From Candidatus Saccharimonadota bacterium (GTDB lineage: Bacteria > Patescibacteriota > Saccharimonadia > Saccharimonadales > Saccharimonadaceae): 64,000 nucleotides of DNA. Position 1 is the stretch's first letter; the number at the start of each line of letters is the position of its first letter. The notes beneath the pieces were generated by a model. That model did not search any database, had not been told where the DNA came from, and saw only the letters and a list, made by a program, of their open reading frames with translations. The position numbers and the translations under genes are program-made. The stretch is taken from assembly GCA_017421325.1 (NCBI GenBank), contig JAFOJO010000024.1, forward strand, positions 27,005 through 91,004. The letters run 5' to 3'. Positions 7 to 62,583 of this stretch are shown piece after piece.

Positions 7-104
7 TTGGATTTTTAAGCACGTCATACGCTGGGCGTCCGGGAAAGATTACCCTACGGGTAACTTTCTCGGCGCCGTCAGGAATATACGTATTAAAAAT
101 CCAA
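7..104. repeat. Nested palindromic element
   Basis: TTGGATTTTTAA (7-18) pairs with TTAAAAATCCAA (93-104); inner CCGGGAAAG/CTTTCTCGG and TTACCC/GGGTAA stems. Confidence 0.65.
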
Positions 105-152
105 ATCAAATTTTATACTACCAGAAAAATACGTGACGGCCACCCGCCAGAG

Positions 153-1880
153 TTATTCGCCGGCGGAGCGAGCAACACAGCGTACAGACCACCCGTAGTT
201 GCCGTAGCCACGGGCTGGATAGATTTCATTATTGCCGCCAAAAGCCAGACTGTAAGCGCTGGTACTGCTGCTAACCGTACTAGACCAGTAGAAGCCGTAG
301 ACGCCGGGACTGTCTAGGAGGCCGCCACCGATATCACCAGACCGCACAAAGTAGTATGGATTAGAACGTAATTTATTGAAGCCACCCGTCGTGTAGCCTA
401 CAGAACCATCACCGGCAGATACTTTAGCAGTTATTTCAGCTTGATATAACATCCTACCAAATTCATTGTTAACGTTGTCTGTCTGTGAGGCATTAGGTAG
501 ACGCCAACCTTTAGGACAAATGGAGTTAGAGGCTATGGCTCCAGTAGTACTTATATTAGTAGAGTTGTTAGAAGCTATAGCGGCAGACCAGTTGTAATAG
601 TTGCCAACAAAGTAACGTTTACACTCATCTTCTGTATGGCTTGCGTTTTTGCAATCTTGCAGCGAATTATATCTTGTGTCGTTATTAGTGTTATTGGAGG
701 TATAGTAATACGTGTCACCGCCTTCGGCTGAGTATGGCGTGATGTAGTTATTGGTTGGCCAAGCAGATGGTTTAACTGAATTGCCATAAATATAGTAATT
801 AGACGTAATAGCTGTAGATACTGGAGTCCAAGTCCAGACGCCATCTTGTTCTGTATAGCCAGCTGAGTAGATACCACTACCGGATGCGGTGGTACTGATA
901 TCTGTGTTTTCCGATGTTAGTGTCGCTACGTTCGTACCGCTGATGTCTAGATCTAGATTACTAGTCATCCAACAATGTCCATCTTTAAGCTTAGTTACCC
1001 AGTAGAGTTTATCGTCTCTGGTGTCTACTAGCTGTGTAGCGGTATTTTCTCCATCTCCAGATACGGAGCTACATATATCTGCTGTCATATCCTGCATAGC
1101 GAAATAGTATTTGTTATCTTCATCTCGGTAGATTGGTTGTATGCCATGTGAAGCAAATGCTGATTCTAGATTATTAAGTGTTGGTTTATTGGTGTTTGGA
1201 TGCACTAGCATATACTTCACTTGCCCATTATAAGTACCTGCATACTGTGATGATGATGTATATACGGCATAGGTGGTAGTAAAAGATGACCCTTTGATCA
1301 TATCAGTGGCTTTTGCCGGGAGAGATGCTACTTTAGTCCACTTATCTGGGACTATGCCGTATATACCATCATAGTCTGATGTAATGACGGGAGGAGTAAG
1401 CGATGGATCATCTTTTAGGTTATTTAGACTCATAGCCCAGTTAGATGTATTACCTGACTCTGCTGTTCCTGATACTATATTAAAGTTAGAACTTTCTGTA
1501 TTAACTAGCTTATTATTACCTTCCTCATTATTACTATACCCTACTGCATATACACTATACCCATTGCCATCATTACATAGTGTAGTAATGGTAGTCTTAC
1601 CTATACCATTAGTATAAGTACCATTAATCAATTCTGCTGTATGACTACTATCTACTACACTACTTAATGTACAGGATGATGAGATAGAAAAGGATAAACT
1701 ATCTGTGGAGGAAGTAGAATCACTACTAGAATCAGTAGCAGAACTATGAAATGATAAATGAGATAAAACAACACCAGAAACCACAAGGAGAGGAATAGAA
1801 ACTAACAATACATTACGGAAAGCATAGTAGAAGAAATCTATTCTACTACTCATTAAAGATTGTTTTACTTTGTGGCCCAT
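153..1880 (-). CDS. Surface/secreted protein with C-terminal FISUMP (Fibrobacter succinogenes major paralogous, C-type-lectin-like) domain, paralog 1
   Basis: N-terminal hydrophobic segment, S/T-rich linker; motifs GHCWMTxNLDL, GNYYNWSAA, SICPKGWRLP, YWSST, SVRCVAR. Confidence 0.75.
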   Translation of the reverse strand: MGHKVKQSLMSSRIDFFYYAFRNVLLVSIPLLVVSGVVLSHLSFHSSATDSSSDSTSSTDSLSFSISSSCTLSSVVDSSHTAELINGTYTNGIGKTTITTLCNDGNGYSVYAVGYSNNEEGNNKLVNTESSNFNIVSGTAESGNTSNWAMSLNNLKDDPSLTPPVITSDYDGIYGIVPDKWTKVASLPAKATDMIKGSSFTTTYAVYTSSSQYAGTYNGQVKYMLVHPNTNKPTLNNLESAFASHGIQPIYRDEDNKYYFAMQDMTADICSSVSGDGENTATQLVDTRDDKLYWVTKLKDGHCWMTSNLDLDISGTNVATLTSENTDISTTASGSGIYSAGYTEQDGVWTWTPVSTAITSNYYIYGNSVKPSAWPTNNYITPYSAEGGDTYYYTSNNTNNDTRYNSLQDCKNASHTEDECKRYFVGNYYNWSAAIASNNSTNISTTGAIASNSICPKGWRLPNASQTDNVNNEFGRMLYQAEITAKVSAGDGSVGYTTGGFNKLRSNPYYFVRSGDIGGGLLDSPGVYGFYWSSTVSSSTSAYSLAFGGNNEIYPARGYGNYGWSVRCVARSAGE

Positions 1881-1910
1881 CTTTTAACCTCACTTATATA
1901 TAATTACTAC

Positions 1911-2045
1911 TCCCCCATGTGGTGCCACTTGTAAACGGGGTAATCATACAAAAATGGCACCGCAAGGGTGTCATATCTAACTATCTACACTAGTAACTAG
2001 GTAAAAGGCTCGATACCTTACGGTGCCGTTTTTTCTTTTACCTAG
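1911..2045 (-). promoter_or_regulatory. Conserved structured 5' leader, copy 1
   Basis: Same motif upstream of all four paralogs; promoter TTGTGA-17-TATAAT on minus strand (-10 at 2107-2112). Confidence 0.7.
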
Positions 2046-2171
2046 TCTTAACTTATTTATAAAAAATGTTCTAGTGTTTACTCAGGTAGTTAAATATGAC
2101 CTTTTTATTATAACCTATATTTTTTATTTTCACAACGCATTTTCTGAAGGTGGTTATGGTATAATTTAGGT

Positions 2172-4245: not shown

Positions 4246-4932
4246 ATGGAATTATTTATTTTAATATTAACTTTGGCAATTTTTGCCGAAACAAGTTTTC
4301 TCACCGCTAGCAAATATAAGCCGATAAAGGGTGGGAGTAGGAAAATCTACGTAGATACTTCGGCTCTAATAGACGGGCGAATACTAAATATTGCCCGGAC
4401 CGGATTCATGGATGGGGATTTAATAATACTAAAAAGCGTACTACTGGAGCTACAGCTTCTGGCAGACGGGAAAGATACGGAAAAACGAAACCGCGCCAGA
4501 GCCGGGCTAGAAGTAGCAGCGGAATTAGAGCGAGTAATAGAAGTAAATACCGAGATACTAGATAATGGCATCGAGGGGCGAAAAAAGGTGGACGAGGAAC
4601 TGCTGAGGCTGGCCAAAGAAAATAAGGGCGTAATACTGACGCTAGATTATAACTTAATTAAAGTAGCGGCGGCGGAGAAAATCCCTACGCTAAATATTAA
4701 TGATCTAGCGCTTGCAGTAAGAAGTGAATTTTTACCGGGCGAGAAAATGAAGCTAAAAATATTAGAAAAAGGCTCGGGCCGGGGGCAGGGAGTGGGGCAT
4801 CTATCAGACGGCACTATGGTAGTGGTAGATAAAGCCGCCAACAAAGTGGGGCGGGAGCTCACAGTAGAATTTGTGAAATTCCACGAGACTTCAGCTGGGA
4901 AGATGATTTTCGCTAGAATTGCCAGAAAATAG
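4246..4932 (+). CDS. PIN/TRAM domain protein (YacL-like)
   Basis: YVDTSALIDGRI PIN motif; C-terminal GQGVGHLSDGTMVVV TRAM motif. Confidence 0.85.
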   Translation: MELFILILTLAIFAETSFLTASKYKPIKGGSRKIYVDTSALIDGRILNIARTGFMDGDLIILKSVLLELQLLADGKDTEKRNRARAGLEVAAELERVIEVNTEILDNGIEGRKKVDEELLRLAKENKGVILTLDYNLIKVAAAEKIPTLNINDLALAVRSEFLPGEKMKLKILEKGSGRGQGVGHLSDGTMVVVDKAANKVGRELTVEFVKFHETSAGKMIFARIARK

Positions 4933-5117
4933 CACTATATATAATATATAGTGGGACACATACGCTATATATAGCGTATAGTAGGTGTGCAAAACGCTAG
5001 ATATAGCGTATTTTGGCGTTTTTGGGGCTACTATATATTATATGTACAGCCAAAAAGTATATGTGCGATAAAAAGCGGGCCAATCCTTAAACTGGCCCGC
5101 TGGTTTACCTTTAAACG

Positions 5118-7880
5118 CTATGGTGTAGGTTTACCTGGTTTTGAACTCGAGTTCGAACTTGAGCTTGAATCACTATCCACTGCAGGTTGCTTGGTAGGGG
5201 TAAGTGTCATTTCGCTAGTAGCAACATAGCCCGAAGAATCGGAAACGGTAAAGCTGATGGATGTTTCGGTGCCTTTTAGGGTATAGCCATGGACCACGCC
5301 ATCTCCGCCTAACGAAATACCACCTTGTTCTACACCGTTAACATAGAGCGTGTAGCCAGCAATATCGTAAGTACCGCGCTTAACCGTAGCGATGATGTTA
5401 TTACCGCTAGTAGAGAGGGCAACTTGCGGAGGAGTATAGTCGCAAGGGTCGCTAGTGTTGCGGTCGTATGGCTCTGGCACGCTATATACATCGTTGCCGG
5501 TCATGGGGTCGGTAGTTTTAGTGACTTCTACTTCAATCTTGTAATCTTCTGGTGTACAGCTAGAAGCTAGCAAATGGTTATAGCGGTTGAACACCAGTTT
5601 CTCTTTAGCGACGCCAGAGTTTTTGCTAGAGTTAAACCAGCTAGGCCAAATGTCAGTTCTACCGTTAACGGTGAGGGTTTGGATGCCGGCCGGCTTAGCT
5701 GGCTGATCGCCATAATGCCAGCGACCATCTGGCTCGTAAACTTCTTTGTGGACGCGTTCCATATAGGTACCGACGGTGTTTCTGACGACATCGTTAGCAT
5801 TTGAGGAAAGCCCCGCGCCGTCGTGGTTGCCATTCCAGACAAACGTAGAGAGGGCAGTAGAATAACTTTCAATTAAGGAATCTTTGGTTTCAGCAGCATT
5901 AGAGGTAGTAGTAGTACCAGTTTTGGTAGCAGTCCAAACATCTGGAACTACATAGCCAAAACTCTGCGAGCCGCCAGCGGCATAGATACTAAAACGGGCG
6001 CTGCCATCGCTTAGAATATTTGAAATCATGTAGGCGACTTGGTCGTCTACCACGCGGGTAGCTTCTTTATCTTCCCAAGTCTCAATAGTTTCACCAGAAG
6101 AATTTTTAACTTCTAGCACATAGGCTAAATCTTTATATGAACCACCGCGGGCAAGAGAAGCATAAGCATTGGCATGCTCTACCATGCGAACACCACAGCC
6201 AGAGCCAATAGCAATAGACAAACCATACCCCTCACGACCTTCACAATAAGTGCTGTCGCCAAGTGCATGAGCAATTTCAAGCGAATTGTCTATGCCGTTA
6301 ATATAAAGCGCCTTAACTGCGGCAATGTTTAGAGAGTGGCCTAATGAAAAACGAATAGTAACATCACCATAGAAAGTATTGGTAGCGTTAGTCAGAGAAC
6401 AGCCACCGGAGTAGCCGGCACAATAGAGCCTGTTGATGTTCTCGTCTCTCAAGATAGAGCCTGGGCCATAGTTAACACCTTCGCGTTGCATAAAGAGTGG
6501 GGTATAGTCCAAGATCGGTTTGATAGAAGAGCCCGGTTCAATTAGGCCGTCAGTGGTTACGTTTAATTCGCCATAAGCAGGATTTGTAAAATCCGCTGAG
6601 CCAACCATAGCAACTATTTGCGAAGTTTCTACGTCTACCGAAACCAACGCTACGTTATCGCTATTATTTTTGTAGGAGAAACCCATACCTACATTTACTG
6701 CATCTTCGGCAATCTTTTGCGCGCGAAGGTCTAGAGTAGTTTTAATAGTCCAGCCACCGGCCCGCATAGTTTGGATGCCGTATTTATCTTCTAATTGTTT
6801 ACGCACCTCGAGCACAAAATGCGGAGCTAGCATATTAGAATATTGGGCAGATTCTGGCTTGATAGTGTCTAGCACAGCCACTTGCTTAGCCTCTTCCGCT
6901 TCGTCTTTAGTAATATAACCCATTTCTGCCATCACATCTAGAGTGTATTGCTGACGCCAAAGTAGCTGTTCGTGGCCGTATTCATTATATGGGTTAAATA
7001 CACCAGGGTTATTTGGAATGGAGGCCAGCAAAGCTGACTCGGCTAGAGTTAGGTCTTTAGCGGACTTACCGAAGTAAGTTTGTGCGGCAGACTCTACGCC
7101 GTTACGGCGACCACCATAAGGCGATTGGTTAAGATACATGGTAAGAATTTGGTCTTTGGAATACATACGCTCTAGCTCGATAGCTAAAATTAGTTCCTTA
7201 ATTTTACGAGCAAGGCCACCGCGGTTTTCACTGGCAGCTTCATCGGCAAAGTAAACTTGCTTGATAAGCTGTTGAGTTAATGTAGAGCCACCCTGTACAC
7301 CATGGCCGCCGAGAGTAGAAAATGTCGCCCGCACAAGAGCGCCAAAATCTACGCCGATATGGTTGTAGAAGTTGCGATCTTCGATGGCGACAGTAGCCTG
7401 ATACATATAGGGCGAAATTTCATCGGCATCCACTACTAAGCGATAGTTTTCATTACCGGTATCTTTCCAGAGCACTTCGCCATTACGATCTAGATAAGTA
7501 TTGACGGTTTCAGAAATTGACATTTCATCGAGACGGATTTCATCGAGATCCTTTTTATAGTAAAGGAAGAGGCCGCCGATAAAGATTACTAAAACCAAAA
7601 AACAGGCGGCAATAGTTTTCCAAATGGTTTTTTGACCACGCTTGGAAAACCACCATTTGAATACGCGCTTTGGGTGCAGACGCGCAAAAAAACGCTTAAC
7701 TGGGTCTTTAGGAAGTTTGGCCAGCTCTTCGGCGCGGCGCCTAGCTTCAGCCTCTTTCTTAGCCTTATGCTTGTAGCTAAGGCTGGTATATAATTTCATA
7801 TTCTTTTTCGCAGTTTTTTTGGGTTGTTTAGTCGTTTTATTCTTGAACGGCAAAATAACCTCAGATTTTTTCTTTACCAT
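5118..7880 (-). CDS. ponA: Bifunctional transglycosylase/transpeptidase PBP1A
   Basis: EDRNFY, GGSTLTQQL, RKIKE, SSIK, KTGT motifs; start placed at MVKK, 6 nt after TATAAT. Confidence 0.9.
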   Translation of the reverse strand: MVKKKSEVILPFKNKTTKQPKKTAKKNMKLYTSLSYKHKAKKEAEARRRAEELAKLPKDPVKRFFARLHPKRVFKWWFSKRGQKTIWKTIAACFLVLVIFIGGLFLYYKKDLDEIRLDEMSISETVNTYLDRNGEVLWKDTGNENYRLVVDADEISPYMYQATVAIEDRNFYNHIGVDFGALVRATFSTLGGHGVQGGSTLTQQLIKQVYFADEAASENRGGLARKIKELILAIELERMYSKDQILTMYLNQSPYGGRRNGVESAAQTYFGKSAKDLTLAESALLASIPNNPGVFNPYNEYGHEQLLWRQQYTLDVMAEMGYITKDEAEEAKQVAVLDTIKPESAQYSNMLAPHFVLEVRKQLEDKYGIQTMRAGGWTIKTTLDLRAQKIAEDAVNVGMGFSYKNNSDNVALVSVDVETSQIVAMVGSADFTNPAYGELNVTTDGLIEPGSSIKPILDYTPLFMQREGVNYGPGSILRDENINRLYCAGYSGGCSLTNATNTFYGDVTIRFSLGHSLNIAAVKALYINGIDNSLEIAHALGDSTYCEGREGYGLSIAIGSGCGVRMVEHANAYASLARGGSYKDLAYVLEVKNSSGETIETWEDKEATRVVDDQVAYMISNILSDGSARFSIYAAGGSQSFGYVVPDVWTATKTGTTTTSNAAETKDSLIESYSTALSTFVWNGNHDGAGLSSNANDVVRNTVGTYMERVHKEVYEPDGRWHYGDQPAKPAGIQTLTVNGRTDIWPSWFNSSKNSGVAKEKLVFNRYNHLLASSCTPEDYKIEVEVTKTTDPMTGNDVYSVPEPYDRNTSDPCDYTPPQVALSTSGNNIIATVKRGTYDIAGYTLYVNGVEQGGISLGGDGVVHGYTLKGTETSISFTVSDSSGYVATSEMTLTPTKQPAVDSDSSSSSNSSSKPGKPTP

Positions 7881-19190: not shown

Positions 19191-21113
19191 TTAGTATTTT
19201 TTATTAAGGAATCTTTTCCTGGAGAATGCCCTCGCGCTAGCATATAGGCCGAGACTGCCACCAATGGCGAACACTATTATCGTTGCGTTATCAGACAGGA
19301 TGCCTCCGTTGGCGGTTTTTGTGATAGCACCAGTATCTGGTGGCGGTGGAGCGACCGAGACGGTCTGGCTGGCATTATCGAAATCTGAGTGAGAGAGGAT
19401 AAGCTCATCTCCATAGTAAAGCTCTTCGAAAATCACTAGATCTGTGCCGCCCAAATCTTTAGTATTTAGACTGTAGATCATTTCGGTAGTTCCGCAAGTG
19501 CTATCCGGTGTGAGCGTAATGGTTTGTTCTACTTTTTTACCATCAACCAAAAGTGGCTCTTTAGTGTTTTTGTTCATTACTACACCCTTAATAGTAAATT
19601 CCATATCCTCTTTAAGGCAGTAGTCCACCACATCTTTAATTTCTATATCTTCATTAAAAGCAACTATCTTATCGCCGTCGGCATTATCCGTAGCGGTGGT
19701 AGTGATACTAAACTCCGCACAGTCATTAGACCACTCACCAAGATCTACTACCTCGCCATTGGTTTTAATGGTAACAGTTTTCTTGGTGTCGCCAATATCG
19801 TAACAGAATTTGTTGGCATCGCATTCTAATTCGGTAATTTCATATGTGTCGTATGGGAGTGCCCCTTTGTCGTCATCTACGGCATTAGCTGCGCCAAACC
19901 AAGTGCCATAGGCAAGATATTCTATTTCATCTTCTTCCATATCGTCATAGCCATTAGTGTGGAATTTGTGGGAAGCGTGAGCTGCAGAAGTATCCACAAC
20001 GCCGTTTTCGTCCGACACAACTAAATGCTCCTCTTTGACGCCACTAGTAGATTTGATTTTGAAAACTACATTAGACATTGGCTCGCCGTCTACATCGCTG
20101 GTTTTAGTGAATTTGACATCGCCACGGATAACGTCGTCGTAAAATTTCAGTTCGTTAGCAGCACTACCAGCGATAATAGTAGGAGTCTGCTCTGACGCGG
20201 TAAGCAGATAGCTGACATTAGTTTTAGTTTCTTTAACTCGATATTTTATACCGATAGGCAAATTTCTAACGATAAGTAGCCCATTAGTATCGGTAGAGCC
20301 AGAAGCAATAAGAGTACCATCATTATAAAACTGACCATCGCCGGGATTGTAAATTCTGTTGCCAGAAGCATTATAGATTTCAAACTCAATACCACTAAAA
20401 TTGGCCTGGCCCTGTGCACTGTCACATTTTCTAGTCTCGCTGTCGCATTTTTGTATTTTAAGATCGCCATATTGAGGGTCAGACTTTATCCATACGACAG
20501 ACTGATAAAACGAGTCGCTGTCTGGATTAGTAGTGTAAAGCGTGTAATTTTTTGCAATTAGCCAAGCATCTGCATTATGGCTAATTGCATAGGCTAGACT
20601 TTCTTCGTCTTCGTCGGTACCGTTAGCTATCGTTCGAATTTTATCGAGGTTAGTAGACAGTCCGGCGTCATCGCCATTAATTACACCAATCGTGGCGTGA
20701 ATGTACGCAAAACGTTGGTCATCGGTGTTAGCCAAATTGCCATATAGAGCATTCACTAGCTCGTTGGCAGAGCCACTATTATTAGTGGCAAGGTAAACCA
20801 ATAGTTTAATTTTGTCGTTATTTAATGAAGAATAATCGTAGCTAGCGCCAGCCGGGGGGTTCTTAGACGGCTCTGCACAGAGGGCCTTATAAGGTTCTCC
20901 GCCTATCTCAACCGAATATCGATAAGTGGCACCGCTGCCATCATAACGTATAATCTCACCGCTACTGCTAACTTTCGCTTGTTCCCCTGCGGCTTCGACA
21001 ACACCAATTTGAATATTCTTCACCGCAATAAAAGCGCCTGCAATAATCGCAATGGAAGAGGTGAGTGCTAGTAAGAAGCGCTTCAGCAGCTTGGTTTTTA
21101 ATAATGTAAACAT
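19191..21113 (-). CDS. Gram-positive-type surface adhesin (thioester-like, SpaA/Cna-B-like and ester-bond/VaFE-like domains, PPDTG sorting signal)
   Basis: Signal/TM; ALCAEP..NPP; GDLKIQK, GDVKFTK and Y.VKE repeats; VIFEELY..HSDFDNASQTV; PPDTG + TM + basic tail. Confidence 0.7.
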   Translation of the reverse strand: MFTLLKTKLLKRFLLALTSSIAIIAGAFIAVKNIQIGVVEAAGEQAKVSSSGEIIRYDGSGATYRYSVEIGGEPYKALCAEPSKNPPAGASYDYSSLNNDKIKLLVYLATNNSGSANELVNALYGNLANTDDQRFAYIHATIGVINGDDAGLSTNLDKIRTIANGTDEDEESLAYAISHNADAWLIAKNYTLYTTNPDSDSFYQSVVWIKSDPQYGDLKIQKCDSETRKCDSAQGQANFSGIEFEIYNASGNRIYNPGDGQFYNDGTLIASGSTDTNGLLIVRNLPIGIKYRVKETKTNVSYLLTASEQTPTIIAGSAANELKFYDDVIRGDVKFTKTSDVDGEPMSNVVFKIKSTSGVKEEHLVVSDENGVVDTSAAHASHKFHTNGYDDMEEDEIEYLAYGTWFGAANAVDDDKGALPYDTYEITELECDANKFCYDIGDTKKTVTIKTNGEVVDLGEWSNDCAEFSITTTATDNADGDKIVAFNEDIEIKDVVDYCLKEDMEFTIKGVVMNKNTKEPLLVDGKKVEQTITLTPDSTCGTTEMIYSLNTKDLGGTDLVIFEELYYGDELILSHSDFDNASQTVSVAPPPPDTGAITKTANGGILSDNATIIVFAIGGSLGLYASARAFSRKRFLNKKY

Positions 21114-35973: not shown

Positions 35974-37617
35974 TTATCTAGCGATACAGCGAAGTGATCT
36001 ACCGGTACCTTTGGTTGCTTGGCCACCGGCAAGAACAACAGCATTATTTGCAAAGCCGAAGGTATAAGCGTAAGAACTTGTATTGTTTGCGTTGGACCAA
36101 TAAAAGCTTTGTGCGTTTTGGTATTCGAATAAATTATTATTAACCCTTCCTGATTTGATAAACAAAAGGGGACTAATGGTTAAGCCGGCATCCGTATTAA
36201 TTTTGTTTTCATTGTACAAATAATTCAACCTCGCAAACTCATTAGTAGAACCAGGTATTGTTTCAGATTGGTTGGATACGGTAGGTAATCTCCATCCTTT
36301 AGGGCATATAGAGTTCTTAGGATTCTTAGATATATCATTTAATGTATCTTGTTTTAGAGAACTACTATCATTAGAAGCTATAGTCGCATTCCAGTTATAG
36401 TAATTGCCTAGTGAAGCATGTCCTGTTTCTATGCTATCTATCTTACTAGCAGTGTATGGCGCAGTATTGCTATTTTGCCATCCAGTAACGGTGGTACCGG
36501 TAAAGTCTATGGTAGTAGCACTACTAGCCGGCTCCCAATATATTACTCCATTGCTTTCTGTGTATCCATCACTATATTCTGTATATTGTCTAGTGCTAGA
36601 GTCATAAGCTACATTTAGATCCGTATTATTAGAATTAAAACTAATGGAAGAGTTAATATCTATATCTAAGTTCTCAGTCATCCAACAATGTCCATCTTTT
36701 AGTTTAGTTACCCAGTAAGTTTTGCCGTCTCTTTTGTCTATAAGCTGAGTCTGTGAAACTTCATCATATACGTCTACCTGATTGCAGATAGTTGCATCCA
36801 TATCTTGCATAGTGTAGTAAGTGCCATTTTCTGTGGTGATGGGGGTTTTATTATGTAGGGCATAGATTTCGTTAAAACCTAGATGATTGTTGTTGCTATT
36901 TGGATGCACCATAACGTATTTTACCTTCCCACTATAAGTACCAGCAGGCTGGATAGAACTAGCATAGATTTGGTAGGTAGTATTGATATAGGAACCAGAC
37001 AAAGTAGTATCTAGAGACATATCGGTTTTAGAGGTTCTTTTAGCCACTAGAGTGTAGATATCTGGTACTTCTTTATAACTATCGTAACCATTTTCTATAG
37101 TAGGAACAGTAGGATTAGATCCTGTGCCTATTCCCGCCGTTAGCTTCATGGCCCAGGATGATGGAGTAAGAGATGATGCTGTACTGCTATCATATACTCC
37201 GGTTTTAACATTATAACTATCACTAATACTACTAATAAGGTCTGTATTACCATCTATGTCCCCACTGCTACCTATAGCATAAATACTATAGCCATTATTA
37301 TCATTACAATAAGCATTCATTTTGGTATTACCTACATCTTCTACCAATTGTCCACCATTTAGTGATGCTGTATGAGCAGAAATAACTTCACCACTAATAG
37401 TGCATGAAGTAGATAGGGTAAATGAGATATTATCTGAACTAGAGCTACTAACTGTAGATTTATTATTTGCTTCCGCAGAACTATGAGAAGTACTAAAACC
37501 AAGAATAAAAGCACAAACCACAAGAAGAGGAATAGAAACTAACAATACATTACGGAAAGCATAGTAGAAGAAATCTATTCTACTACTCATTAATGATTGT
37601 TTTACTTTGTGGCCCAT
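35974..37617 (-). CDS. FISUMP-domain surface protein, paralog 2
   Basis: N-terminus nearly identical to paralogs 1 and 4; GHCWMTENL, GNYYNW, SICPKGWRLP, SLRCIAR. Confidence 0.75.
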   Translation of the reverse strand: MGHKVKQSLMSSRIDFFYYAFRNVLLVSIPLLVVCAFILGFSTSHSSAEANNKSTVSSSSSDNISFTLSTSCTISGEVISAHTASLNGGQLVEDVGNTKMNAYCNDNNGYSIYAIGSSGDIDGNTDLISSISDSYNVKTGVYDSSTASSLTPSSWAMKLTAGIGTGSNPTVPTIENGYDSYKEVPDIYTLVAKRTSKTDMSLDTTLSGSYINTTYQIYASSIQPAGTYSGKVKYVMVHPNSNNNHLGFNEIYALHNKTPITTENGTYYTMQDMDATICNQVDVYDEVSQTQLIDKRDGKTYWVTKLKDGHCWMTENLDIDINSSISFNSNNTDLNVAYDSSTRQYTEYSDGYTESNGVIYWEPASSATTIDFTGTTVTGWQNSNTAPYTASKIDSIETGHASLGNYYNWNATIASNDSSSLKQDTLNDISKNPKNSICPKGWRLPTVSNQSETIPGSTNEFARLNYLYNENKINTDAGLTISPLLFIKSGRVNNNLFEYQNAQSFYWSNANNTSSYAYTFGFANNAVVLAGGQATKGTGRSLRCIAR

Positions 37618-37650
37618 CTTCTACCTCACTTATATATGATTACTACTACT

Positions 37651-37788
37651 CCCCCATGTGGTGCCACTATATTAATGGGGATTAACAAAAATGGCACCGC
37701 AAGGGGTGCTATACATTATTACTAGATACAAAGTATTTTGTCTCTGCAACAAGGTTCCTTACGGCGCCATTTGAATTGCAGAGTAAAA
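37651..37788 (-). promoter_or_regulatory. Conserved structured 5' leader, copy 2
   Basis: Motif as in copy 1; extended -10 TGGTATAAT at 37846-37854 (minus). Confidence 0.7.
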
Positions 37789-38061
37789 TACTCATAAAAG
37801 CATATTATAAAAAATACTTTGTAAATAATAATGTATAGCTCTTTTATTATACCACGCATATGAAAAATCAAATAAAAAACGTTCTTCAAGCAGTAGAAAT
37901 CCGTATAAAGCTTATGTTTCCACATTTTCTTTTGCAAATGTAAAAAATGTGCTACAATAGTGAAGGAGTTTATTAGAAATCGTAGTTGACATTGTAATAA
38001 AACTATGATATTATAAGTAAAATTAACAATATTAACAGTAGTGGGACAAGGAGACCTATTG

Positions 38062-39090
38062 ATGGAGCAAAATGCGGAAATCCTCGAAAATGCAATCTCT
38101 GGCAGTCTAAAAATCATTGAACAAGACCGCGAAAAAGAAATTATTTCTAGGCGATTTGGGCTGACCGGAACAAAAGAAACCCTTGAACAAATTGGCGAAA
38201 TGTTGTCAATTACTAGGGAACGGGTTAGACAACTCGAAAAAGCAATTCTTATTCGTCTCCAAATTTCCGCTGAGGAGAACCAAATTCCGGAACTTGCCGC
38301 TGCTGAAAAGATTTTGATTCGCAATTTGATTGAAATGGGGCGGGTGGCCAAGATTTCTGACCTAGCCGACAAGGTTTATGGCCGAGACACCACCGCGTCC
38401 GAAAAGACCGGCATTTATTTTATAGCGACTTTCTCGAAAAGCCTAACTGTAGTAGAAGAAAATGACCGTTACCACGCAGCAGTGGGTATTGCTGAGTATG
38501 GCGATAGTAAGGAAATTCGCGAAAAAGTAGACGAAATCGTGAAGGTAATTAAAGATAACAAAAAGCCAATGACCATCGACGAGCTTGACAATAAGCTAGA
38601 TTATGAGCACCCAGACTATATAAAGGCTGTGGCGTCAATATCTAAGCTACTCGCTACCTTAAATGGGGTGTGGGGCCTCGCCAAGTGGCCGGCAGTAAAC
38701 CCGAAGAATATTCGCGATAAGATTTTTGTAATACTAGAGACTAAAAAAGAGCCAATGCATTTTTCAGAAATTGCGGCAGAGATTAAAAAGTCTAATTTCA
38801 AGCGTAAAAATGTGACGATTCAGGCCATTCATAATGAACTAATTAAAGATGCGCGCTTTGTGCTGATTGGCCGGGGGATTTATGCGCTAAGTTCGTGGGG
38901 ATACAAGAAGGGAACTATCTCGGAAATTATTAAGTCTATCCTAGAGAAGGCCGGAAAACCCCTAACGCGTGAAGAGATTGTGAAACAGGTGCTGAAGGTG
39001 CGCAAGGTGAAGGAGACTACGATACTACTGAATTTGCAGAATAAGGCGCTGTTTAAGAAAGTTGATAAAAACTCTTATACTTTGGCCTAG
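38062..39090 (+). CDS. Sigma70 region-4 HTH plus C-terminal winged-HTH (RpoE/HARE-HTH-like) protein
   Basis: RRFGL...ETLEQIG....ITRERVRQLE; IHNELIKDARFVLIGRGIYAL. Confidence 0.75.
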   Translation: MEQNAEILENAISGSLKIIEQDREKEIISRRFGLTGTKETLEQIGEMLSITRERVRQLEKAILIRLQISAEENQIPELAAAEKILIRNLIEMGRVAKISDLADKVYGRDTTASEKTGIYFIATFSKSLTVVEENDRYHAAVGIAEYGDSKEIREKVDEIVKVIKDNKKPMTIDELDNKLDYEHPDYIKAVASISKLLATLNGVWGLAKWPAVNPKNIRDKIFVILETKKEPMHFSEIAAEIKKSNFKRKNVTIQAIHNELIKDARFVLIGRGIYALSSWGYKKGTISEIIKSILEKAGKPLTREEIVKQVLKVRKVKETTILLNLQNKALFKKVDKNSYTLA

Positions 39091-43150: not shown

Positions 43151-43652
43151 CTATTTTAGATAGGCGATTTTTTTCTTTACACCTACATTATCTAGAAAAT
43201 CTACATATTTTGGTGTATAGGTTCTGTATAATGAAGAGGTAGAATGACGATTAGGCGACAATAATTTGCAAAAACGGTTTTTATTCACTAAATATTGTAC
43301 CATTTTGAAATAGTCCCCGTCACCAGATACCAATACTACATCATCGAAAGGTTCGTTATCAGCGATTTTGGACATAATGGAAAACACTATATCGGTATCC
43401 ACATTTCCCTTTTTCTTTCCGGTCATTACTTGGCTGTGCTCACGGAATACAAGGATGAAACCTGCCGTTTGGATGAGTTCGTATAAGGCTCTGGTTTGCC
43501 TCATCTACAGCCCCTAGAAAATAATAGGCCTTAGTAACCTTATATTTGTCCCTTAAATAAATCCTGAACTTCTTAAGATCAACAATCCAATTGTTCGCCT
43601 TAGTGTTCATATATAGATTTTGTCCGTCTATAAAAGCATAATTATTTGTCAT
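43151..43652 (-). pseudogene. NYN (LabA/DUF88) nuclease-domain gene with single frameshift
   Basis: YAFIDGQNL in one frame; KGNVDTD and LVSGDGDY in another; join at AAC CAG A GCC TTA near 43489. Confidence 0.75.
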
Positions 43653-43744: not shown

Positions 43745-45394
43745 TTAGCGAGCTACGCAGCGTACAGACCTCCCGTAGTACCTGTAGTAGTTACTGGCTG
43801 GGTAGATATCAGTACCATTAAAGCCCAGGGAGTAAGCGTAAGTACTATTGCCAACCGTACTAGACCAGCAGCTGCTGCTGACACCGGGATTGACCAGGGT
43901 ACCGTCACTGACAGCGCCAGACCGCACAAAGTAGTAAGGATTAGAGCGTAGCTTGCTAAAACTAGTAACGCCACTGTAATAACCTACGGAGCCATCTCCA
44001 TTTGATAAAGCCGCGGTAATGCCTTCCCCATACAGCATCCTACCAAATTCGTTGTTAACGTTATCTGTTTGTGAGGCATTGGGTAGACGCCATCCTTTAG
44101 GACAGATAGAGTTAGAGGCGATTTCTCCTGCTGTGCTACCTATATTAGTAGAATTATTAGAAGCTATAGCGGCAGACCAGTTATAGTAGTTACCAGCATG
44201 ATAATGTTTACAATCTCCTTCTGTATGATTTGCTGCTATACACTCAGATAGTGAATTGTATTTTATATCATTTGCTTCGGAATTAGATGTATAGTAATAT
44301 ACATCACCTGGATCTGCAGAATATGGATAGTTATTTTGATTAGACCAACCAGGAACAGAAGTACCGTTTACTGGTAGGTTATATTTACCATTAGTGGTAT
44401 CTGGTTTCCATGTAGCATTACTATCAAAACTATCTGGATCCCAACCTAGATCCGTATCATTATGAGTGTAGGTTCTGGTGGCGTCTATCTCTAAGTCTAA
44501 GTTCTGCGTCATCCAGCAATGTCCATCTTTAAGCTTAGTTACCCAGTAGAGATTATTATCTCTAGTGTCTAATAATTGTGTGGCGGTACTTGTGCCGTCG
44601 TTAGCGACCATATTACAAATCCCCGCATCCATATCTTGCATAGCATAATATTCACCAACGCCAGCTATATTGATTTTATTTTTCCCGGATAAGGCAAAGG
44701 TATCCTCGATAGTTAAAGTGCCTTCATTTTTGTATGGATGAATTAGGGCATACTTCACCTGCCCCTGATAAGTACCTGCATACTGACTAGATGATGCATA
44801 TACAGCATAAGTAGTAGTAAAGGATGAACCCTCAGCCATGTCCGTAGTACCAGATGCTCTTCCTGCTACCTTAGTCCAATAAGGTGGTACTATACCATAG
44901 ACATTATTGTAATCACTTTCTATAGTAGGAGGAGTAGGAGAAGGATCATCTGGCATATTGTTTAACTTCATAGCCCATTGTGAGGTAAGACCACTTGTTG
45001 CTAATCCTGTGTCTATACTATATTGTGGATATTCAGTATTAATGAGTCTATTATTACCTTCTTCATTATTACTATATCCTACTGCATATACACTATACCC
45101 ATTACCATCATTACATAGTGTAGTAATGGTAGTTTTTCCTATATCTCCTAAATAGTTACCATTATATACTTCTGCATTATGAGAAATATTAACTACACTA
45201 GATAAAGTACATGATGATGAGATAGTAATAGCTAGATTGTCTGAACTAGAACCAGAGTTTGTAGCAGAACTATGAGGCAACGATAAGATAATGGTAGAAA
45301 TGATAACTAATGGAATACTAATGGCTAATATATTGCGGAAAGCATAGTAGAAGAAATCTGTATAACTATTTGTTTTATATTGTTTATCACCCAT
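43745..45394 (-). CDS. FISUMP-domain surface protein, paralog 3
   Basis: Closest to paralog 1 in N-domain and C-terminal domain. Confidence 0.75.
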   Translation of the reverse strand: MGDKQYKTNSYTDFFYYAFRNILAISIPLVIISTIILSLPHSSATNSGSSSDNLAITISSSCTLSSVVNISHNAEVYNGNYLGDIGKTTITTLCNDGNGYSVYAVGYSNNEEGNNRLINTEYPQYSIDTGLATSGLTSQWAMKLNNMPDDPSPTPPTIESDYNNVYGIVPPYWTKVAGRASGTTDMAEGSSFTTTYAVYASSSQYAGTYQGQVKYALIHPYKNEGTLTIEDTFALSGKNKINIAGVGEYYAMQDMDAGICNMVANDGTSTATQLLDTRDNNLYWVTKLKDGHCWMTQNLDLEIDATRTYTHNDTDLGWDPDSFDSNATWKPDTTNGKYNLPVNGTSVPGWSNQNNYPYSADPGDVYYYTSNSEANDIKYNSLSECIAANHTEGDCKHYHAGNYYNWSAAIASNNSTNIGSTAGEIASNSICPKGWRLPNASQTDNVNNEFGRMLYGEGITAALSNGDGSVGYYSGVTSFSKLRSNPYYFVRSGAVSDGTLVNPGVSSSCWSSTVGNSTYAYSLGFNGTDIYPASNYYRYYGRSVRCVAR

Positions 45395-45437
45395 TTTACC
45401 TCACCTATATAGTTTAGTTTTTTGATTAACCTACTAA

Positions 45438-45570
45438 TGCATAATTCATTAATGTTGAGGGACATAAAGGCAAAATCTATTGAAAGTAGATTTTGCCGCC
45501 GAAGGGGCGAAGTGATGTGATAAAATTTATTATCACATCACGAAGCTCCCGAAACATAATGAATTATGCA
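45438..45570. mobile_element. ~133-bp MITE-like element, copy B
   Basis: 13-bp perfect TIR TGCATAATTCATT; inverted homolog of 7954-8087. Confidence 0.7.
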
Positions 45571-45590
45571 AAAGTACATTTTAGCTTGTA

Positions 45591-45721
45591 GTGCCACTTG
45601 TAAACGGGGTAGTTATACAAAAATGGCACCGCAAGGGGTGCAATAACAAGTCATATACCAGGCTTATACCCATATAGAACTTAGTCCTTACGGCGCCGTT
45701 CATATCCTATATGGATATAAG
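45591..45721 (-). promoter_or_regulatory. Conserved structured 5' leader, copy 3
   Basis: Motif as in copy 1; TGCTATACT at 45770-45778 (minus). Confidence 0.7.
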
Positions 45722-45807
45722 TATCTAAAAAACGCACTGGTTTACTTTATAACTTGTTATTGCACTTTTAGTATAGCACAATTATTTTGCTTTGTGCGAA
45801 AAATTGG

Positions 45808-62276: not shown

Positions 62277-62307
62277 CTTCTACCTCACTTATAATTAGCT
62301 TTACTAA

Positions 62308-62442
62308 CCCCCATGTGGTGCCACTTGTAAACGGGGTAGTCATACAAAAATGGCACCGCAAGGGGTGCTATAACCTAATCAAAGTAATCGTGCGAACACT
62401 ACACATCTGACGGCTTCCCTGCGATGCCATTATTAGATATGT
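62308..62442 (-). promoter_or_regulatory. Conserved structured 5' leader, copy 4
   Basis: Motif as in copy 1; TTGAAA-18-TATAAT with extended TG (-10 at 62497-62502, minus). Confidence 0.7.
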
Positions 62443-62583
62443 AGTTTTCGCCTATAAAATAGGCACGATTTTTAATGATTAAGTTATAGCATCTTTATTA
62501 TATCACGAGCAAAAAGTGGATTTCAAGGGCTTTTTTCTTCCCTGTTATTTTGCGGATTATTCGTTCTGTGATATAATAGGCTT

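What the first reader, a model, noticed from the sequence alone, without database searches (positions are those of the whole stretch)
1911..2045. Shared switch-like 5' leader RNA in front of four dispersed surface-protein paralogs
Seen: the same element lies upstream of all four FISUMP genes (1911-2045, 37651-37788, 45591-45721, 62308-62442), each about 45-55 nt downstream of its own sigma70 promoter. On the sense strand the order is as follows. First, an outer hairpin whose stem differs completely between copies but always pairs (plus strand CTAGGTAAAAG/CTTTTACCTAG, TCTGCAA/TTGCAGA, CTTATACCCATATAG/CTATATGGATATAAG, ACATCTGA/TTAGATATGT). Its loop carries arm A (consensus AAYGGCRCCGUAAGG, more diverged in copy 4). 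Next is a near-invariant arm B (CCUUGCGGUGCCAUUUUU), then a loop with CCCC, then arm C (GUGGCACCACAUGGGGG, truncated in copy 3) before the SD (GUGAGG). B can pair with A (14-16 bp, pseudoknot geometry) or with C (long hairpin), not both. A:B mismatches resolve mostly as G-U on the sense strand. Inference: an undescribed cis-regulatory RNA switch (riboswitch/attenuator-like or protein/antisense target) co-regulating a surface-protein family. I recognise no known riboswitch consensus.
Basis: partly seen in the sequence, partly recalled or inferred. Interest (0 to 1): 0.85.

Follow-up and report, generated by a model that had tools for sequence, protein, structure and literature searches.

The report
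Structured leader RNA before surface-lectin genes
All four lectin-like surface-protein genes in this window, and well over a hundred relatives in gut Saccharibacteria, are preceded by the same uncatalogued, highly structured 5' leader RNA, whose invariant middle segment can pair with either of two partners, which makes it a strong candidate for a new gene-control element in bacteria whose regulation is almost unknown.

Summary
All four copies lie on the minus strand. Each starts at an extended -10 promoter. The tip loop carries arm A (UGGCRYC-GNRA-GG). Invariant arm B (CCUUGCGGUGCC + AUUUUU) follows 0-3 nt after the rod. A variable arm C, the SD and the gene follow.

About 130 further copies occur in animal-gut Saccharibacteria MAGs and metagenomes, nearly all upstream of secreted Fib_succ_major-domain proteins. 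Rod sequences are unrelated between copies, yet all fold. The sense strand folds about 10 kcal/mol better than the antisense strand (88/92 and 35/36 copies). A:B keeps 12 bp, varying almost only through G.U on the sense strand (184 G.U against 10 A.C). A U tract follows B in 38/38 copies found without requiring it. Rfam has no match.

My best reading, at modest confidence, is a cis-acting conformational switch or attenuator. B is a hub. The A:B pseudoknot abuts a U tract and looks terminator-like, and B:C is the nested alternative. What it controls is unproven: no transcript ends could be mapped, and B never varies, so A:B shows no two-sided covariation.

The parts
2107..2112 (-). Copy 1: -10 box TATAAT (with -35 TTGTGA at 2130-2135)
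1970..2100 (-). Copy 1: rod, a 5'-terminal imperfect hairpin (P1-P2, U-rich 5' bulge at ~2046-2070, then P3).
   Evidence: MFE folds; family statistics
2016..2027 (-). Copy 1: arm A core GGCACCGUAAGG, in the tip loop of the rod
1950..1967 (-). Copy 1: arm B CCUUGCGGUGCC (1956-1967) plus AUUUUU (1950-1955)
1912..1940 (-). Copy 1: CCCCGU...AUGGGG hairpin, with arm C GUGGCACCACAUGGGGG at 1912-1928
1888..1893 (-). Copy 1: SD GUGAGG; start codon at 1878-1880
37846..37851 (-). Copy 2: -10 box TATAAT with upstream TG (37853-37854)
37708..37839 (-). Copy 2: rod
37757..37768 (-). Copy 2: arm A GGCGCCGUAAGG (two G.U pairs with B)
37687..37704 (-). Copy 2: arm B plus U tract
37651..37680 (-). Copy 2: CCCCAU...AUGGGG hairpin, with arm C at 37651-37667
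37624..37629 (-). Copy 2: SD GUGAGG; start codon at 37615-37617
45770..45775 (-). Copy 3: -10 box TATACT with upstream TG
45638..45765 (-). Copy 3: rod
45686..45697 (-). Copy 3: arm A GGCGCCGUAAGG
45619..45636 (-). Copy 3: arm B plus U tract
45585..45597 (-). Copy 3: truncated arm C GUGGCACUACAAG
45439..45569 (-). Copy 3 only: a second, separate structured element inserted between arm C and the SD (SD at 45399-45404, start codon at 45392-45394)
   Evidence: fold -69.9 kcal/mol, z -9.07; no Rfam match; the same element follows the leader in 11 related loci
62497..62502 (-). Copy 4: -10 box TATAAT with upstream TG
62366..62491 (-). Copy 4: rod
62417..62428 (-). Copy 4: arm A GGCAUCGCAGGG (the most diverged; still 12/12 paired with B through two wobbles)
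62346..62363 (-). Copy 4: arm B plus U tract
62308..62336 (-). Copy 4: CCCCGU...AUGGGG hairpin, with arm C at 62308-62324
62283..62288 (-). Copy 4: SD GUGAGG; start codon at 62274-62276

Best explanation
This is a family of structured 5' leader RNAs with no Rfam match, found in animal-gut Saccharibacteria (Nanosyncoccus and relatives). It is transcribed from a strong extended -10 promoter in front of genes for secreted proteins with a Fib_succ_major (FISUMP, lectin-like) domain.

Shown. The RNA starts as a ~46-bp rod hairpin flush with the 5' end. The rod's tip displays arm A, and invariant arm B plus a U tract follows directly after its base. B can pair with A (a 12-bp tip-to-base pseudoknot of about -27 kcal/mol) or with downstream arm C (a nested hairpin), but not with both.

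Inferred. The leader works in cis as a conformational switch, most likely a transcription attenuator. B emerges from the polymerase before C exists, so A gets the first chance to pair with it. If A captures B, a strong helix sits directly against AUUUUU, flanked by an A-rich run, like an intrinsic terminator whose two arms are held on a strut. Transcription would then stop before the gene. If the polymerase escapes, C is made and locks B away, or a CCCC/GGGG hairpin forms, and the mRNA is completed with a free SD. Whatever tips the balance (a protein on the A tip, polymerase speed, ions) is unknown.
For: Family and location. There are four window copies. More than 104 genome loci match, about 92 of them distinct copies, nearly all in Saccharibacteria or Nanosyncoccus MAGs from sheep, goat, cattle, mouse and rabbit gut, with 8-12 or more per genome. 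Another 38 copies come from metagenomes. A -10 hexamer ends 4-6 nt before the first paired base in 91/92 copies, with an upstream TG in 79. Downstream genes encode 450-750-aa proteins with an N-terminal signal or TM segment, mostly with Fib_succ_major and/or List_Bact_rpt domains.

The rod is an RNA structure. Sense-strand MFE averages -49.8 against -38.9 kcal/mol for the antisense strand, and sense is lower in 88/92 copies (p 2e-16). The z-score against shuffles is -8.2. This is replicated at -47.6 against -38.5 kcal/mol in 35/36 metagenome copies. Rod arms are only 31-34% identical between copies. Among related rods, pairs changed on both sides are kept 69 times and broken 23 times.

A:B. 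In 82 copies taken without a motif filter, the pairs are 842 Watson-Crick, 123 G.U, 8 A.C and 11 other. No A arm is a perfect complement of B. A further 38 copies give 391/61/2/2. The core is 99.2% paired, against 44-55% when the partner columns are slid. Duplex energy is tightly distributed at -26.8 +/- 2.1 kcal/mol. One variant copy, L082, changes B's A to G together with A's U to C, turning U-A into C-G.

U tract. ATTTTT follows B in 38/38 copies found with a pattern that did not include it (37 in full, 1 cut off by the contig end), and in all 9 copies reached through proteins.

B:C. Of 75 copies, 37 have a C arm with at least 13 of 16 positions complementary to B, against 1.2% of shuffles. 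The best arms differ from a perfect complement only by wobbles. B pairs downstream over at least 8 bp in 71/79 copies.

Balance. In the window copies the A:B state is 5-12 kcal/mol below the B:C state before any pseudoknot penalty, so the two are roughly isoenergetic.

Terminator resemblance. In unrelated bacteria, chance matches to B are ordinary terminator hairpins of the form GGGCACC-CCUUGC-GGUGCCC-UUUU.
Against: There is no direct evidence of termination or of any regulation. RNA runs were available only as assembled contigs, which break at the repeated B segment, and some span the promoter, so they may include DNA. The little there is shows no excess of leader over coding sequence for copy 1.

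A:B is a pseudoknot between the tip and the base of a ~40-bp rod and needs a 180-degree fold at the bulge. The length relation this predicts (P1+P2 = P3 + 12) is roughly met by the medians (25 against 16 pairs). Across copies, however, the two lengths correlate negatively (r -0.71), not positively.

B never varies, so A:B has no two-sided covariation and R-scape-type tests would have no power. Part of A's variation (Y at the N position and R at the R position of GNRA) is also what a simple GNRA-capped tip hairpin would show.

C lies after the U tract, so it cannot take part in a termination decision, and the model does not explain why C is kept. The SD is unpaired in both states. One assembled variant of copy 2 lacks the rod interior, including A, yet keeps the gene.
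Confidence: 0.4

Rival explanations
1. The leader is a constitutive 5' stabiliser or processing module and does not switch. The rod, flush with the 5' end, shields highly expressed surface-protein mRNAs from 5'-end-dependent decay; RNase J is encoded in these genomes. The rod and/or the B:C helix could also be RNase III sites. A:B and B:C would then only make the fold more compact.
For: The rod starts at about +1 in 91/92 copies. Its structure is conserved but its sequence is not, which is what 5' stabiliser hairpins show. The MFE of the whole leader is simply the rod plus the B:C hairpin side by side, with a free SD. An RNase J gene lies next to one locus. P1 and the best B:C helices reach 17-22 bp. 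There is no excess of leader RNA over coding sequence.
Against: A stabiliser needs neither a 46-bp three-helix rod with a fixed U-rich bulge, nor a 12-nt loop sequence complementary to an invariant 3' segment, nor an invariant U tract. It also does not explain why A always carries at least one wobble and why the A:B energy is so narrowly distributed.
Confidence: 0.27
2. The leader is a docking platform for a shared trans-acting regulator, either an RNA-binding protein or a small RNA. This regulator would recognise the invariant sequences (UGGCACC-GNRA-GG in A and C, or B itself) and so co-regulate the whole lectin family. The cis pairings would be secondary.
For: B is identical in about 98% of some 140 copies although the rods have diverged completely. 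That degree of invariance is more than mutual pairing requires. A and C are near-copies of one motif, each displayed in a hairpin loop. The promoters look constitutive, with an extended -10 and no conserved -35 or operator.
Against: No trans RNA carrying a B-like or A-like sequence was found outside the leaders in the window or in about 1.5 Mb of related loci. No candidate protein is known. The wobble-only variation of A and of the best C arms points to RNA-RNA pairing with B rather than protein contacts. This rival overlaps with the best explanation, since a factor could be what tips the switch.
Confidence: 0.2
3. The leader is a small-molecule riboswitch, in which the rod, pseudoknot and bulge form a ligand pocket.
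For: It is a long, conserved leader with a pseudoknot and alternative pairings, has many copies, and matches no known class.
Against: Conserved nucleotides lie almost entirely in helices (A, B, C). The junctions and loop linkers vary in sequence. The downstream genes encode surface lectin-like proteins, not transporters or enzymes that would suggest a ligand. A 12-bp pseudoknot helix is far longer than those in known pseudoknot riboswitches (my own knowledge).
Confidence: 0.06
4. The feature acts at the DNA level: inverted repeats for site-specific inversion (phase variation), a MITE or transposon end, or an attC-like folded recombination site.
For: A, B and C are inverted repeats next to surface-protein genes, and the rod is a long imperfect palindrome. 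G.T pairs are also tolerated in folded single-stranded DNA.
Against: All ~130 copies have the same orientation of the A-B and B-C segments, and none is inverted. The segments are only ~50 and ~20-30 bp long. Rod sequences are unrelated between copies, unlike MITEs. Strand asymmetry is strong. The element sits at a fixed distance between a promoter and an SD. No recombinase or integrase lies beside the four window copies, and the genes are scattered among housekeeping genes.
Confidence: 0.03

Closest known systems
Transcription attenuators with alternative hairpins (trp, pyr and his leaders; terminator/antiterminator riboswitch expression platforms)
   Same: They are 5' leaders in which one segment (here B) has two mutually exclusive partners, and one of the two helices sits directly against a U tract.
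   Different: Here the terminator-like helix is not a local hairpin. Its 5' arm sits in the tip loop of a ~46-bp rod, so the helix is a long-range pseudoknot. The competing partner C lies after the U tract rather than before it. There is no leader peptide and no recognised sensor.
Pseudoknot-based riboswitches (ZTP, fluoride, preQ1, SAM-II)
   Same: A hairpin loop or subdomain pairs with a 3' segment next to the expression platform. As in ZTP, the sequence between the two pairing parts is variable (my own knowledge; no Rfam hit).
   Different: This pseudoknot helix is 12 bp long. There is no conserved unpaired pocket. The intervening sequence is itself a conserved long helix. The associated genes give no hint of a ligand.
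5'-terminal stabiliser stem-loops (E. coli ompA 5' UTR, B. subtilis aprE and ermC leaders)
   Same: The hairpin begins at or within a few nucleotides of the transcript's 5' end, upstream of genes for abundant envelope or secreted proteins. Structure matters and sequence does not (my own knowledge for the comparison).
   Different: The known stabilisers are short hairpins. Here there is a three-helix 130-nt rod with a conserved bulge, a conserved tip sequence and an invariant complementary 3' segment with a U tract.
Intrinsic (Rho-independent) terminators
   Same: A GC-rich helix GGCACC.../...GGUGCC is followed by AUUUUU and preceded by an A-rich run. The same stem with a CCUUGC loop serves as an ordinary terminator hairpin in unrelated bacteria.
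   Different: The two arms are 44-59 nt apart, and that 'loop' is paired with upstream sequence. The element is in a 5' leader, not at a gene end. The scan for simple terminators does not flag it.
Shared upstream switches of surface-protein families (Mycoplasma penetrans mpl invertible promoters, Bacteroides invertons)
   Same: Many dispersed paralogous surface-protein genes each carry their own copy of one conserved upstream element containing inverted repeats (my own knowledge).
   Different: Those are DNA inversions catalysed by recombinases. Here no inverted copies exist and the constraint is on one RNA strand.

Membership tests
Any Rfam 15 family | Score at or above the family's gathering threshold | tested here: not met
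   There are 0 hits in the 64-kb window. E-value mode on the element gives only chance hits, with E >= 0.38 at bit scores far below gathering. Twenty related loci (136 kb) give only tRNA and 16S rRNA.
Intrinsic terminator / attenuator | Stable GC-rich helix ending 0-2 nt before a run of U | tested here: met
   A:B is 12 bp at -26.8 +/- 2.1 kcal/mol and ends one nucleotide before UUUUU. The U run is present in 38/38 copies sampled without requiring it (37 in full, 1 cut off by the contig end).
Intrinsic terminator / attenuator | The helix is a local hairpin with a short loop | tested here: not met
   The arms are 44-59 nt apart and the intervening strand is paired in the rod, so A:B is a pseudoknot. 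The simple terminator scan does not report it.
Intrinsic terminator / attenuator | RNA 3' ends at the U tract; read-through depends on conditions | not testable with these tools
   Only assembled contigs of RNA runs were available. They break at the repeated B segment.
Intrinsic terminator / attenuator | A competing (antiterminator) pairing that forms before the terminator is complete | tested here: not met
   The only sequence-conserved competitor, C, lies downstream of the U tract. No copy-specific competitor for the rod's 3' strand was found.
Riboswitch | Conserved unpaired nucleotides forming a pocket at junctions or loops | tested here: not met
   Conservation is concentrated in A, B and C, which pair with each other. 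The loop linkers and the bulge vary apart from being U-rich.
Riboswitch | Ligand binding that changes the fold | not testable with these tools
   This needs in-line probing, ITC or reporter assays.
Riboswitch | Association with genes of one metabolic or transport pathway | tested here: not met
   The downstream genes encode Fib_succ_major / List_Bact_rpt surface proteins.
H-type pseudoknot | A hairpin-loop sequence complementary to a segment 3' of the hairpin, with pairing maintained across homologues | tested here: met
   The core is 99.2% paired, against 44-55% in slid controls. G.U to A.C counts are 123:8 and 61:2.
H-type pseudoknot | Two-sided compensatory changes | tested here: inconclusive
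   There are none in the 40-sequence alignment because B is invariant. One variant copy (L082) has U-A changed to C-G.
5' stabiliser hairpin | The hairpin begins within a few nt of the transcript's 5' end | tested here: met
   The -10 box ends 4-6 nt before the first paired base in 87 of 91 copies. The TSS itself is inferred, not mapped.
5' stabiliser hairpin | It prolongs mRNA half-life | not testable with these tools
   This needs decay assays.
MITE / transposon end | Copies share sequence along their length, with terminal inverted repeats and target duplications | tested here: not met
   Rod arms are 31-34% identical between copies, and 89 of 92 are under 80% identical to any other.
Invertible DNA switch | Both orientations of the segment between the inverted repeats are found | tested here: not met
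   All ~130 copies have one orientation and fold as sense-strand rods.
tRNA-like element / T-box-type tRNA contact | Sequence match to a tRNA acceptor end of the same organisms | tested here: not met
   None of the 43 tRNA genes in the held Saccharibacteria loci has a GGCACCG acceptor arm. There is no tRNA or T-box hit at the element.

The most novel reading that the evidence does not exclude
The leader could be a new kind of riboregulator that combines a universal 'hub' (A, B, U tract) with a copy-specific 'address' (the rod, whose sequence is unique to each paralogue). The rod would act as a strut that sets whether the two arms of a split terminator can meet. Anything that opens or bends one particular rod, such as a copy-specific antisense RNA, a helicase or a protein, would then switch that one lectin gene without touching the others. 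This would be an RNA-level counterpart of antigenic variation in an ultrasmall epibiont. Even without the addressing, a terminator whose stem is a rod-tip-to-base pseudoknot would be a new class of attenuator.
Probability: 0.12. Interest if true: 0.9.

Novelty: new variant of a known kind. Interest (0 to 1): 0.72.

Why it matters
Saccharibacteria and other Patescibacteria have tiny genomes, and almost nothing is known about how they regulate genes. My searches of the held paper library found no description of this element, and the one review I read mentions riboswitches only as a possible engineering tool.

Here, roughly 8-12 or more genes per genome, all encoding lectin-like surface proteins that are plausible mediators of attachment to host bacteria or glycans, share one elaborate leader RNA. 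Its conservation is stricter than that of the proteins themselves. If it is a switch, it is the main control point for the cell-surface repertoire of a widespread group of gut epibionts.

It would also add an unusual architecture to the catalogue of cis-regulatory RNAs: a rod whose tip pairs with a hub segment just beyond its base. It offers a native, compact control element for the genetic systems now being built for these organisms. Even if it only stabilises mRNA, it is a large, well-defined new RNA family suitable for Rfam, with about 130 sequences already in hand.

Tried and rejected
1. Known families. Rfam gave nothing at gathering and E-value thresholds, on the window and on related loci.
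2. Transcript ends. I laid contigs from metatranscriptome runs on copies 1, 4 and 2. The contigs break at the shared B-C segment, the strains differ, and some contigs cross the promoter and may be DNA. No 5' or 3' ends could be read. A locus from a widespread strain (L108) could not be submitted for a run search.
3. Fold-back geometry. The pseudoknot predicts that P1+P2 length rises with P3 length. The observed correlation is negative (r -0.71), possibly because the hinge is called from the MFE fold. This gives no support.
4. A copy-specific downstream competitor for the rod's 3' strand. The duplex energy of each rod's 3' strand with its own downstream region is -6.9 kcal/mol, against -7.0 with the 3' strands of other copies, so this is not a general feature. 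A few copies with an AAAGGAGGG SD (L036, L082) do extend C into the rod's 3' strand.
5. Co-tuning of A:B and B:C strength. There is no correlation (rho 0.05).
6. Sister families with the same architecture but a different hub sequence. I scanned all held AT-rich loci for promoter-proximal rods whose tip pairs with the 3' flank. Only canonical copies stand out, at -26.9 against -11.6 kcal/mol.
7. Variant B copies. Only L082 (CCUUACGGUGCCG) and L098 (a short U run) were found among about 100 copies.
8. tRNA acceptor mimicry by A:B. No matching tRNA exists.
9. A column-wise covariation test of the rod. MAFFT cannot align the rods, and RNAalifold recovers only A:B. I used shuffles, the strand comparison and pairwise comparison of related rods instead.
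10. Literature. Searches on Saccharibacteria, Nanosyncoccus, riboswitches and structured RNA found no description of this element.
11. Other surface genes. The TQ/SpaA/thioester adhesin gene at 19191-21113 has an ordinary short leader.
Full report
**What is in the window.** All four copies are on the minus strand. The 18-mer CCTTGCGGTGCCATTTTT (arm B plus a U run) occurs exactly four times, where shuffles give 0.10 matches within 3 mismatches. Each time it lies upstream of one of four paralogous ORFs: 153-1880, 35974-37617, 43745-45394 and 60606-62276. The four proteins are 48-64% identical. They have an N-terminal signal or TM segment and a weak C-terminal Pfam Fib_succ_major match in three of the four. 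A covariance model built from 36 copies from other genomes, with no window copy in the seed, finds exactly these four sites. They score 68-78 bits (E <= 5.5e-13) on the minus strand and only 24-41 bits on the plus strand, and nothing else in 64 kb scores comparably.

**The anatomy is larger than described.** I folded the sequence upstream of B in the window copies and in relatives. It consists of P1 (14-19 bp), a small internal loop and P2 (6-10 bp). Then comes a large one-sided bulge, 15.0 +/- 4.9 nt on the 5' strand against 0.7 nt on the 3' strand, with a U-rich motif of the CAUUUUUAUA type. P3 and a tip loop complete it. The tip loop reads (A-rich run)-UGGCRYC-GNRA-GG, followed by 5.7 +/- 1.4 variable nt. 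The rod begins right after the promoter. A -10 hexamer (TATAAT in 57 copies) is found in 91/92 copies, ends 4-6 nt before the first paired base in 87 of them, and has an upstream TG in 79. The RNA's 5' end is therefore inferred to be flush with P1, although the TSS has not been mapped. The rod ends 0-3 nt before B. In window coordinates the rods are 1970-2100, 37708-37839, 45638-45765 and 62366-62491. After B and AUUUUU come 15-30 nt, then arm C, then 20-40 nt, then the SD (AAGUGAGGU) and the start codon. In copy 3, C is cut short and a separate 131-nt structured element (45439-45569) sits before the SD.

**A large family.** Nearly all are 'Candidatus Saccharibacteria' or 'Candidatus Nanosyncoccus' MAGs from sheep, goat, cattle, mouse and rabbit gut, with at least 8-12 loci in single genomes. 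The rest are chance matches in unrelated taxa. These loci give 92 distinct copies. A metagenome scan with GCACCCCTTGCGGTGCC, a pattern that does not include the U run, added 38 more copies among chance hits. Nine copies reached independently of any DNA pattern all have the canonical B and U run. These are the four window copies plus L001, L002, L108, L116 and L117, found through protein homologues. L002 is syntenic with copy 1. Wherever an ORF could be read (about 70 cases), the downstream gene encodes a 450-750-aa protein with an N-terminal signal or TM segment. Of ten diverse representatives, seven have Fib_succ_major, four have List_Bact_rpt (one has both), and one has no Pfam match. The window itself is ordinary chromosome, carrying DnaE, EF-G, PriA and PBPs. 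A different adhesin gene in the window (19191-21113, with TQ/SpaA/thioester domains) has a plain short leader. The element therefore belongs to the FISUMP superfamily of genes rather than to surface proteins in general.

**It is not a known RNA.** Rfam 15 gives no hit at gathering thresholds in the window. In E-value mode on copy 1 and on the copy-3 region it gives only chance matches. In 136 kb of related loci it finds only tRNA and 16S rRNA. My literature searches found no description of it.

**The rod is selected as RNA on the sense strand.** Rod sequences are essentially unrelated between copies. Anchored arm identity is 31-34%, and 89 of 92 rods are under 80% identical to any other. Yet every one folds. 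Mean MFE is -49.8 kcal/mol against -23.4 for shuffles (z -8.2). The sense strand folds better than its reverse complement (-38.9) in 88/92 copies (Wilcoxon p 2e-16), helped by about 5 G.U pairs per rod. The metagenome set replicates this, at -47.6 against -38.5 kcal/mol with sense lower in 35/36. Among 25 pairs of related rods (75-85% identical), base pairs changed on both sides are kept 69 times and broken 23 times. Random expectation for a standard pair is 37.5%. MAFFT cannot align the rods, so a column-wise covariation test was not possible. The evidence here comes from shuffles, strand asymmetry and pairwise compensation.

**A:B.** RNAalifold on the sequence alignment recovers exactly one helix, the 12-bp A:B core GGCRYCGNRAGG: CCUUGCGGUGCC. 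It is 99.2% paired across 40 sequences, against 44-55% when the partner columns are slid by 1-3 positions. In 82 copies taken by position, without a motif filter, the 984 cells are 842 Watson-Crick, 123 G.U, 8 A.C and 11 other. In the 38 metagenome copies they are 391/61/2/2. A transition in arm A gives G.U at 7 of the 12 positions and A.C at the other 5, so 184:10 is a strong sign of pairing on this RNA strand. No A arm is the perfect complement of B, since every one carries at least one wobble. The duplex energy is also narrowly distributed, at -26.8 +/- 2.1 kcal/mol. Three caveats apply. First, B is invariant, so there are no two-sided changes. The one variant copy found (L082) changes B's GCCA to GCCG together with A's UGGC to CGGC. 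Second, most copies were found through B, so its invariance is partly a result of how they were collected, although the nine pattern-independent copies agree. Third, variation at the N and R positions of GNRA is also expected for a plain GNRA-capped tip. Even so, N is U or C in 79 of 82 copies, which fits pairing with B's G.

**B:C.** Thirty-seven of 75 copies have, 19-35 nt after B, an arm with at least 13 of 16 positions complementary to CCCCUUGCGGUGCCAU, against 1.2% of shuffled tails. The eight perfect arms differ from the exact complement only by wobble-compatible transitions, for example AUGGUGCCGUAAGGGG. GGCACC is the conserved core and the rest is specific to subfamilies. In the window's type, C is GUGGCACCACAUGGGGG and can alternatively sit in the loop of a CCCC(G/A)U...AUGGGG hairpin. 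The G-to-A change in that hairpin between copies turns G.U into A-U. B pairs downstream over at least 8 bp in 71/79 copies, but the B:C energy varies widely, at -24.9 +/- 9.2 kcal/mol. C is therefore real but auxiliary. The constant core of the family is the promoter, the rod, A, B and the U run.

**Two states.** The nested MFE of every full leader is the rod next to the B:C hairpin, with the SD unpaired. A:B is topologically a pseudoknot, joining the tip loop to the 3' flank of the same hairpin, so nested folding cannot show it. Adding the A:B duplex energy and the fold of the freed downstream part gives a state 5-12 kcal/mol lower than rod + B:C in the four window copies, before any pseudoknot penalty and before the loss of the small tip hairpin. 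The family mean difference is -10.9 +/- 5.9 kcal/mol. With a typical penalty the two states are close in energy, which is what a switch needs. Geometrically, A:B requires the rod to fold back at the one-sided bulge, so that P3 stacked on A:B (about 16 + 12 bp) lies alongside P1+P2 (about 25 bp plus a loop). The medians fit roughly, and the 5-6-nt linker after A is just long enough to span a 12-bp helix. Across copies, however, P3 and P1+P2 lengths correlate negatively (r -0.71), so this test gives no support.

**How it most likely works (inference).** The U run is the most telling feature. AUUUUU follows B in 38/38 copies found without requiring it (37 in full, 1 cut off by the contig end) and in all nine pattern-independent copies. 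Arm A is preceded by an A-rich run. In unrelated bacteria, the chance matches to B are ordinary terminator hairpins of the form GGGCACC-CCUUGC-GGUGCCC-UUUU. A:B plus the U run therefore looks like an intrinsic terminator whose 5' arm has been moved to the tip of a rod. B leaves the polymerase before C exists, so A has the first chance to pair. If A:B forms while the polymerase is on the U run, transcription should stop. It is established (my own knowledge: Yarnell and Roberts, 1999) that any duplex forming next to a U tract, even one with an oligonucleotide added in trans, can release the transcript. If the polymerase escapes, C captures B and the full mRNA is made. I rate this attenuator/switch reading at about 0.4.

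**Weaknesses of that reading.** There are no data on transcript ends. Only assembled contigs of RNA runs were available, they break at the repeated B-C block, and some cross the promoter. The little there is shows no excess of leader over coding sequence for copy 1. C plays no part in the termination decision. The SD is free in both states. The signal that would tip the balance is unknown.

**Rivals.** The first rival (0.27) is a constitutive stabiliser or processing module. A hairpin flush with the 5' end is what protects mRNAs from 5'-end-dependent decay, and these genomes encode RNase J. It does not explain A, B and the U run. The second (0.20) is a platform for a shared trans-acting protein or small RNA. 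This would explain why B is identical in about 98% of copies, but no trans partner was found, and it overlaps with the main model. The third (0.06) is a small-molecule riboswitch, which has no conserved pocket and no metabolic gene association. The fourth (0.03) is a DNA-level element such as an inversion site, MITE or attC-like site. Against it stand the single orientation of all copies, the unrelated rod sequences, the strand asymmetry and the promoter-to-SD context.

**Verdict.** The finding is real. As a kind of element, it is a cis-acting structured leader with alternative pairings and a terminator-like module, which puts it closest to attenuators and riboswitch expression platforms. Its architecture (5'-flush rod, tip-to-base pseudoknot, invariant hub, copy-specific rod sequence) matches none of the known classes I compared it with. 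I therefore class it as a new variant of a known kind. The function is inferred, not shown.

Noticed in passing
window 45439-45569 (minus strand): A second structured RNA element of ~131 nt lies between leader arm C and the SD of paralogue 3. It has a long closing stem GCAUAAUUCAUUAUG.../...CAUUAAUGAAUUAUGC, a GGGA/UCCC stem and three hairpins. It folds at -69.9 kcal/mol (z -9.07) and has no Rfam match. The same element follows the leader in L013, L021, L034, L041, L044, L049, L060, L073, L094, L097 and L099.
   Followed up: partly
L108 547-690 (also L009, L042, L052, L106); similar text at window ~10-150 (+): A GC-rich element follows the leader in place of a direct SD. It includes a long, nearly perfect stem of about 25 bp (GCAACCAGAAUAACACUUUUCGGGAC.../...GUCCCGAGAAAGUGUUAUUCUGGUUGC). 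It folds at -73.1 kcal/mol (z -5.4) and has no Rfam match. A related GC-rich sequence (AAGCACGTCATACGCTGGGCGTCCGGGAAAG...) lies just past the 3' end of paralogue 1, on the opposite strand.
   Followed up: partly
window 37719-37823 (copy 2 rod interior): Contigs in run X28 (labelled metatranscriptomic) and run X52 (kind unknown) join 37719 to 37823 and 37718 to 37829. They therefore lack 103-110 nt of the rod, including arm A, while keeping the gene. This could be a natural deletion variant or polymerase/RT skipping across the hairpin.
   Followed up: no
window 1913-1924, 37652-37663, 62309-62317 (minus strand): Arm C contains a tiny upstream ORF with no SD of its own: AUG GGG GAG UAG in copies 1 and 2, and AUG GGG GUU AGU AAA GCU AAU UAU AAG UGA in copy 4. 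It is probably incidental.
   Followed up: no
L036 ~4880-4940 (-), L082 ~6750-6810 (-) and 1180-1330 (-): In a subfamily with the SD AAAGGAGGG, arm C is extended so that it also pairs with the last 8-13 nt of the rod's 3' strand. It would therefore compete with the base of the rod. A CUCC stretch between B and C could also pair with the SD. This is not a general feature.
   Followed up: partly
L002 11687-12088; L117 1-350: Small ORFs with a CdiA_C toxin-domain hit lie directly beside FISUMP genes in relatives of this genome.
   Followed up: no
window 53887-54894 (+), 43151-43504 (-), 38041-39090 (+): A KwaB-like (Kiwa defence) protein gene lies at 53887-54894. A NYN-domain ribonuclease gene lies about 240 bp beyond the 3' end of paralogue 3. 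A Sigma70_r4 + HARE-HTH protein gene is divergently transcribed next to the promoter of copy 2.
   Followed up: no
window 1-64000: ARAGORN finds no tRNA gene in the 64 kb and Rfam finds no RNA family of any kind, although related loci carry tRNAs.
   Followed up: no
L206, L210, L211, L225 (unrelated metagenome contigs): The B sequence occurs by chance as the loop and 3' arm of ordinary terminator hairpins (GGGCACC-CCUUGC-GGUGCCC followed by Us) in other bacteria. In the leader, the preceding GCACC (the end of the rod) could likewise form a 4-5-bp mini-hairpin with GGUGC right before the U run.
   Followed up: partly
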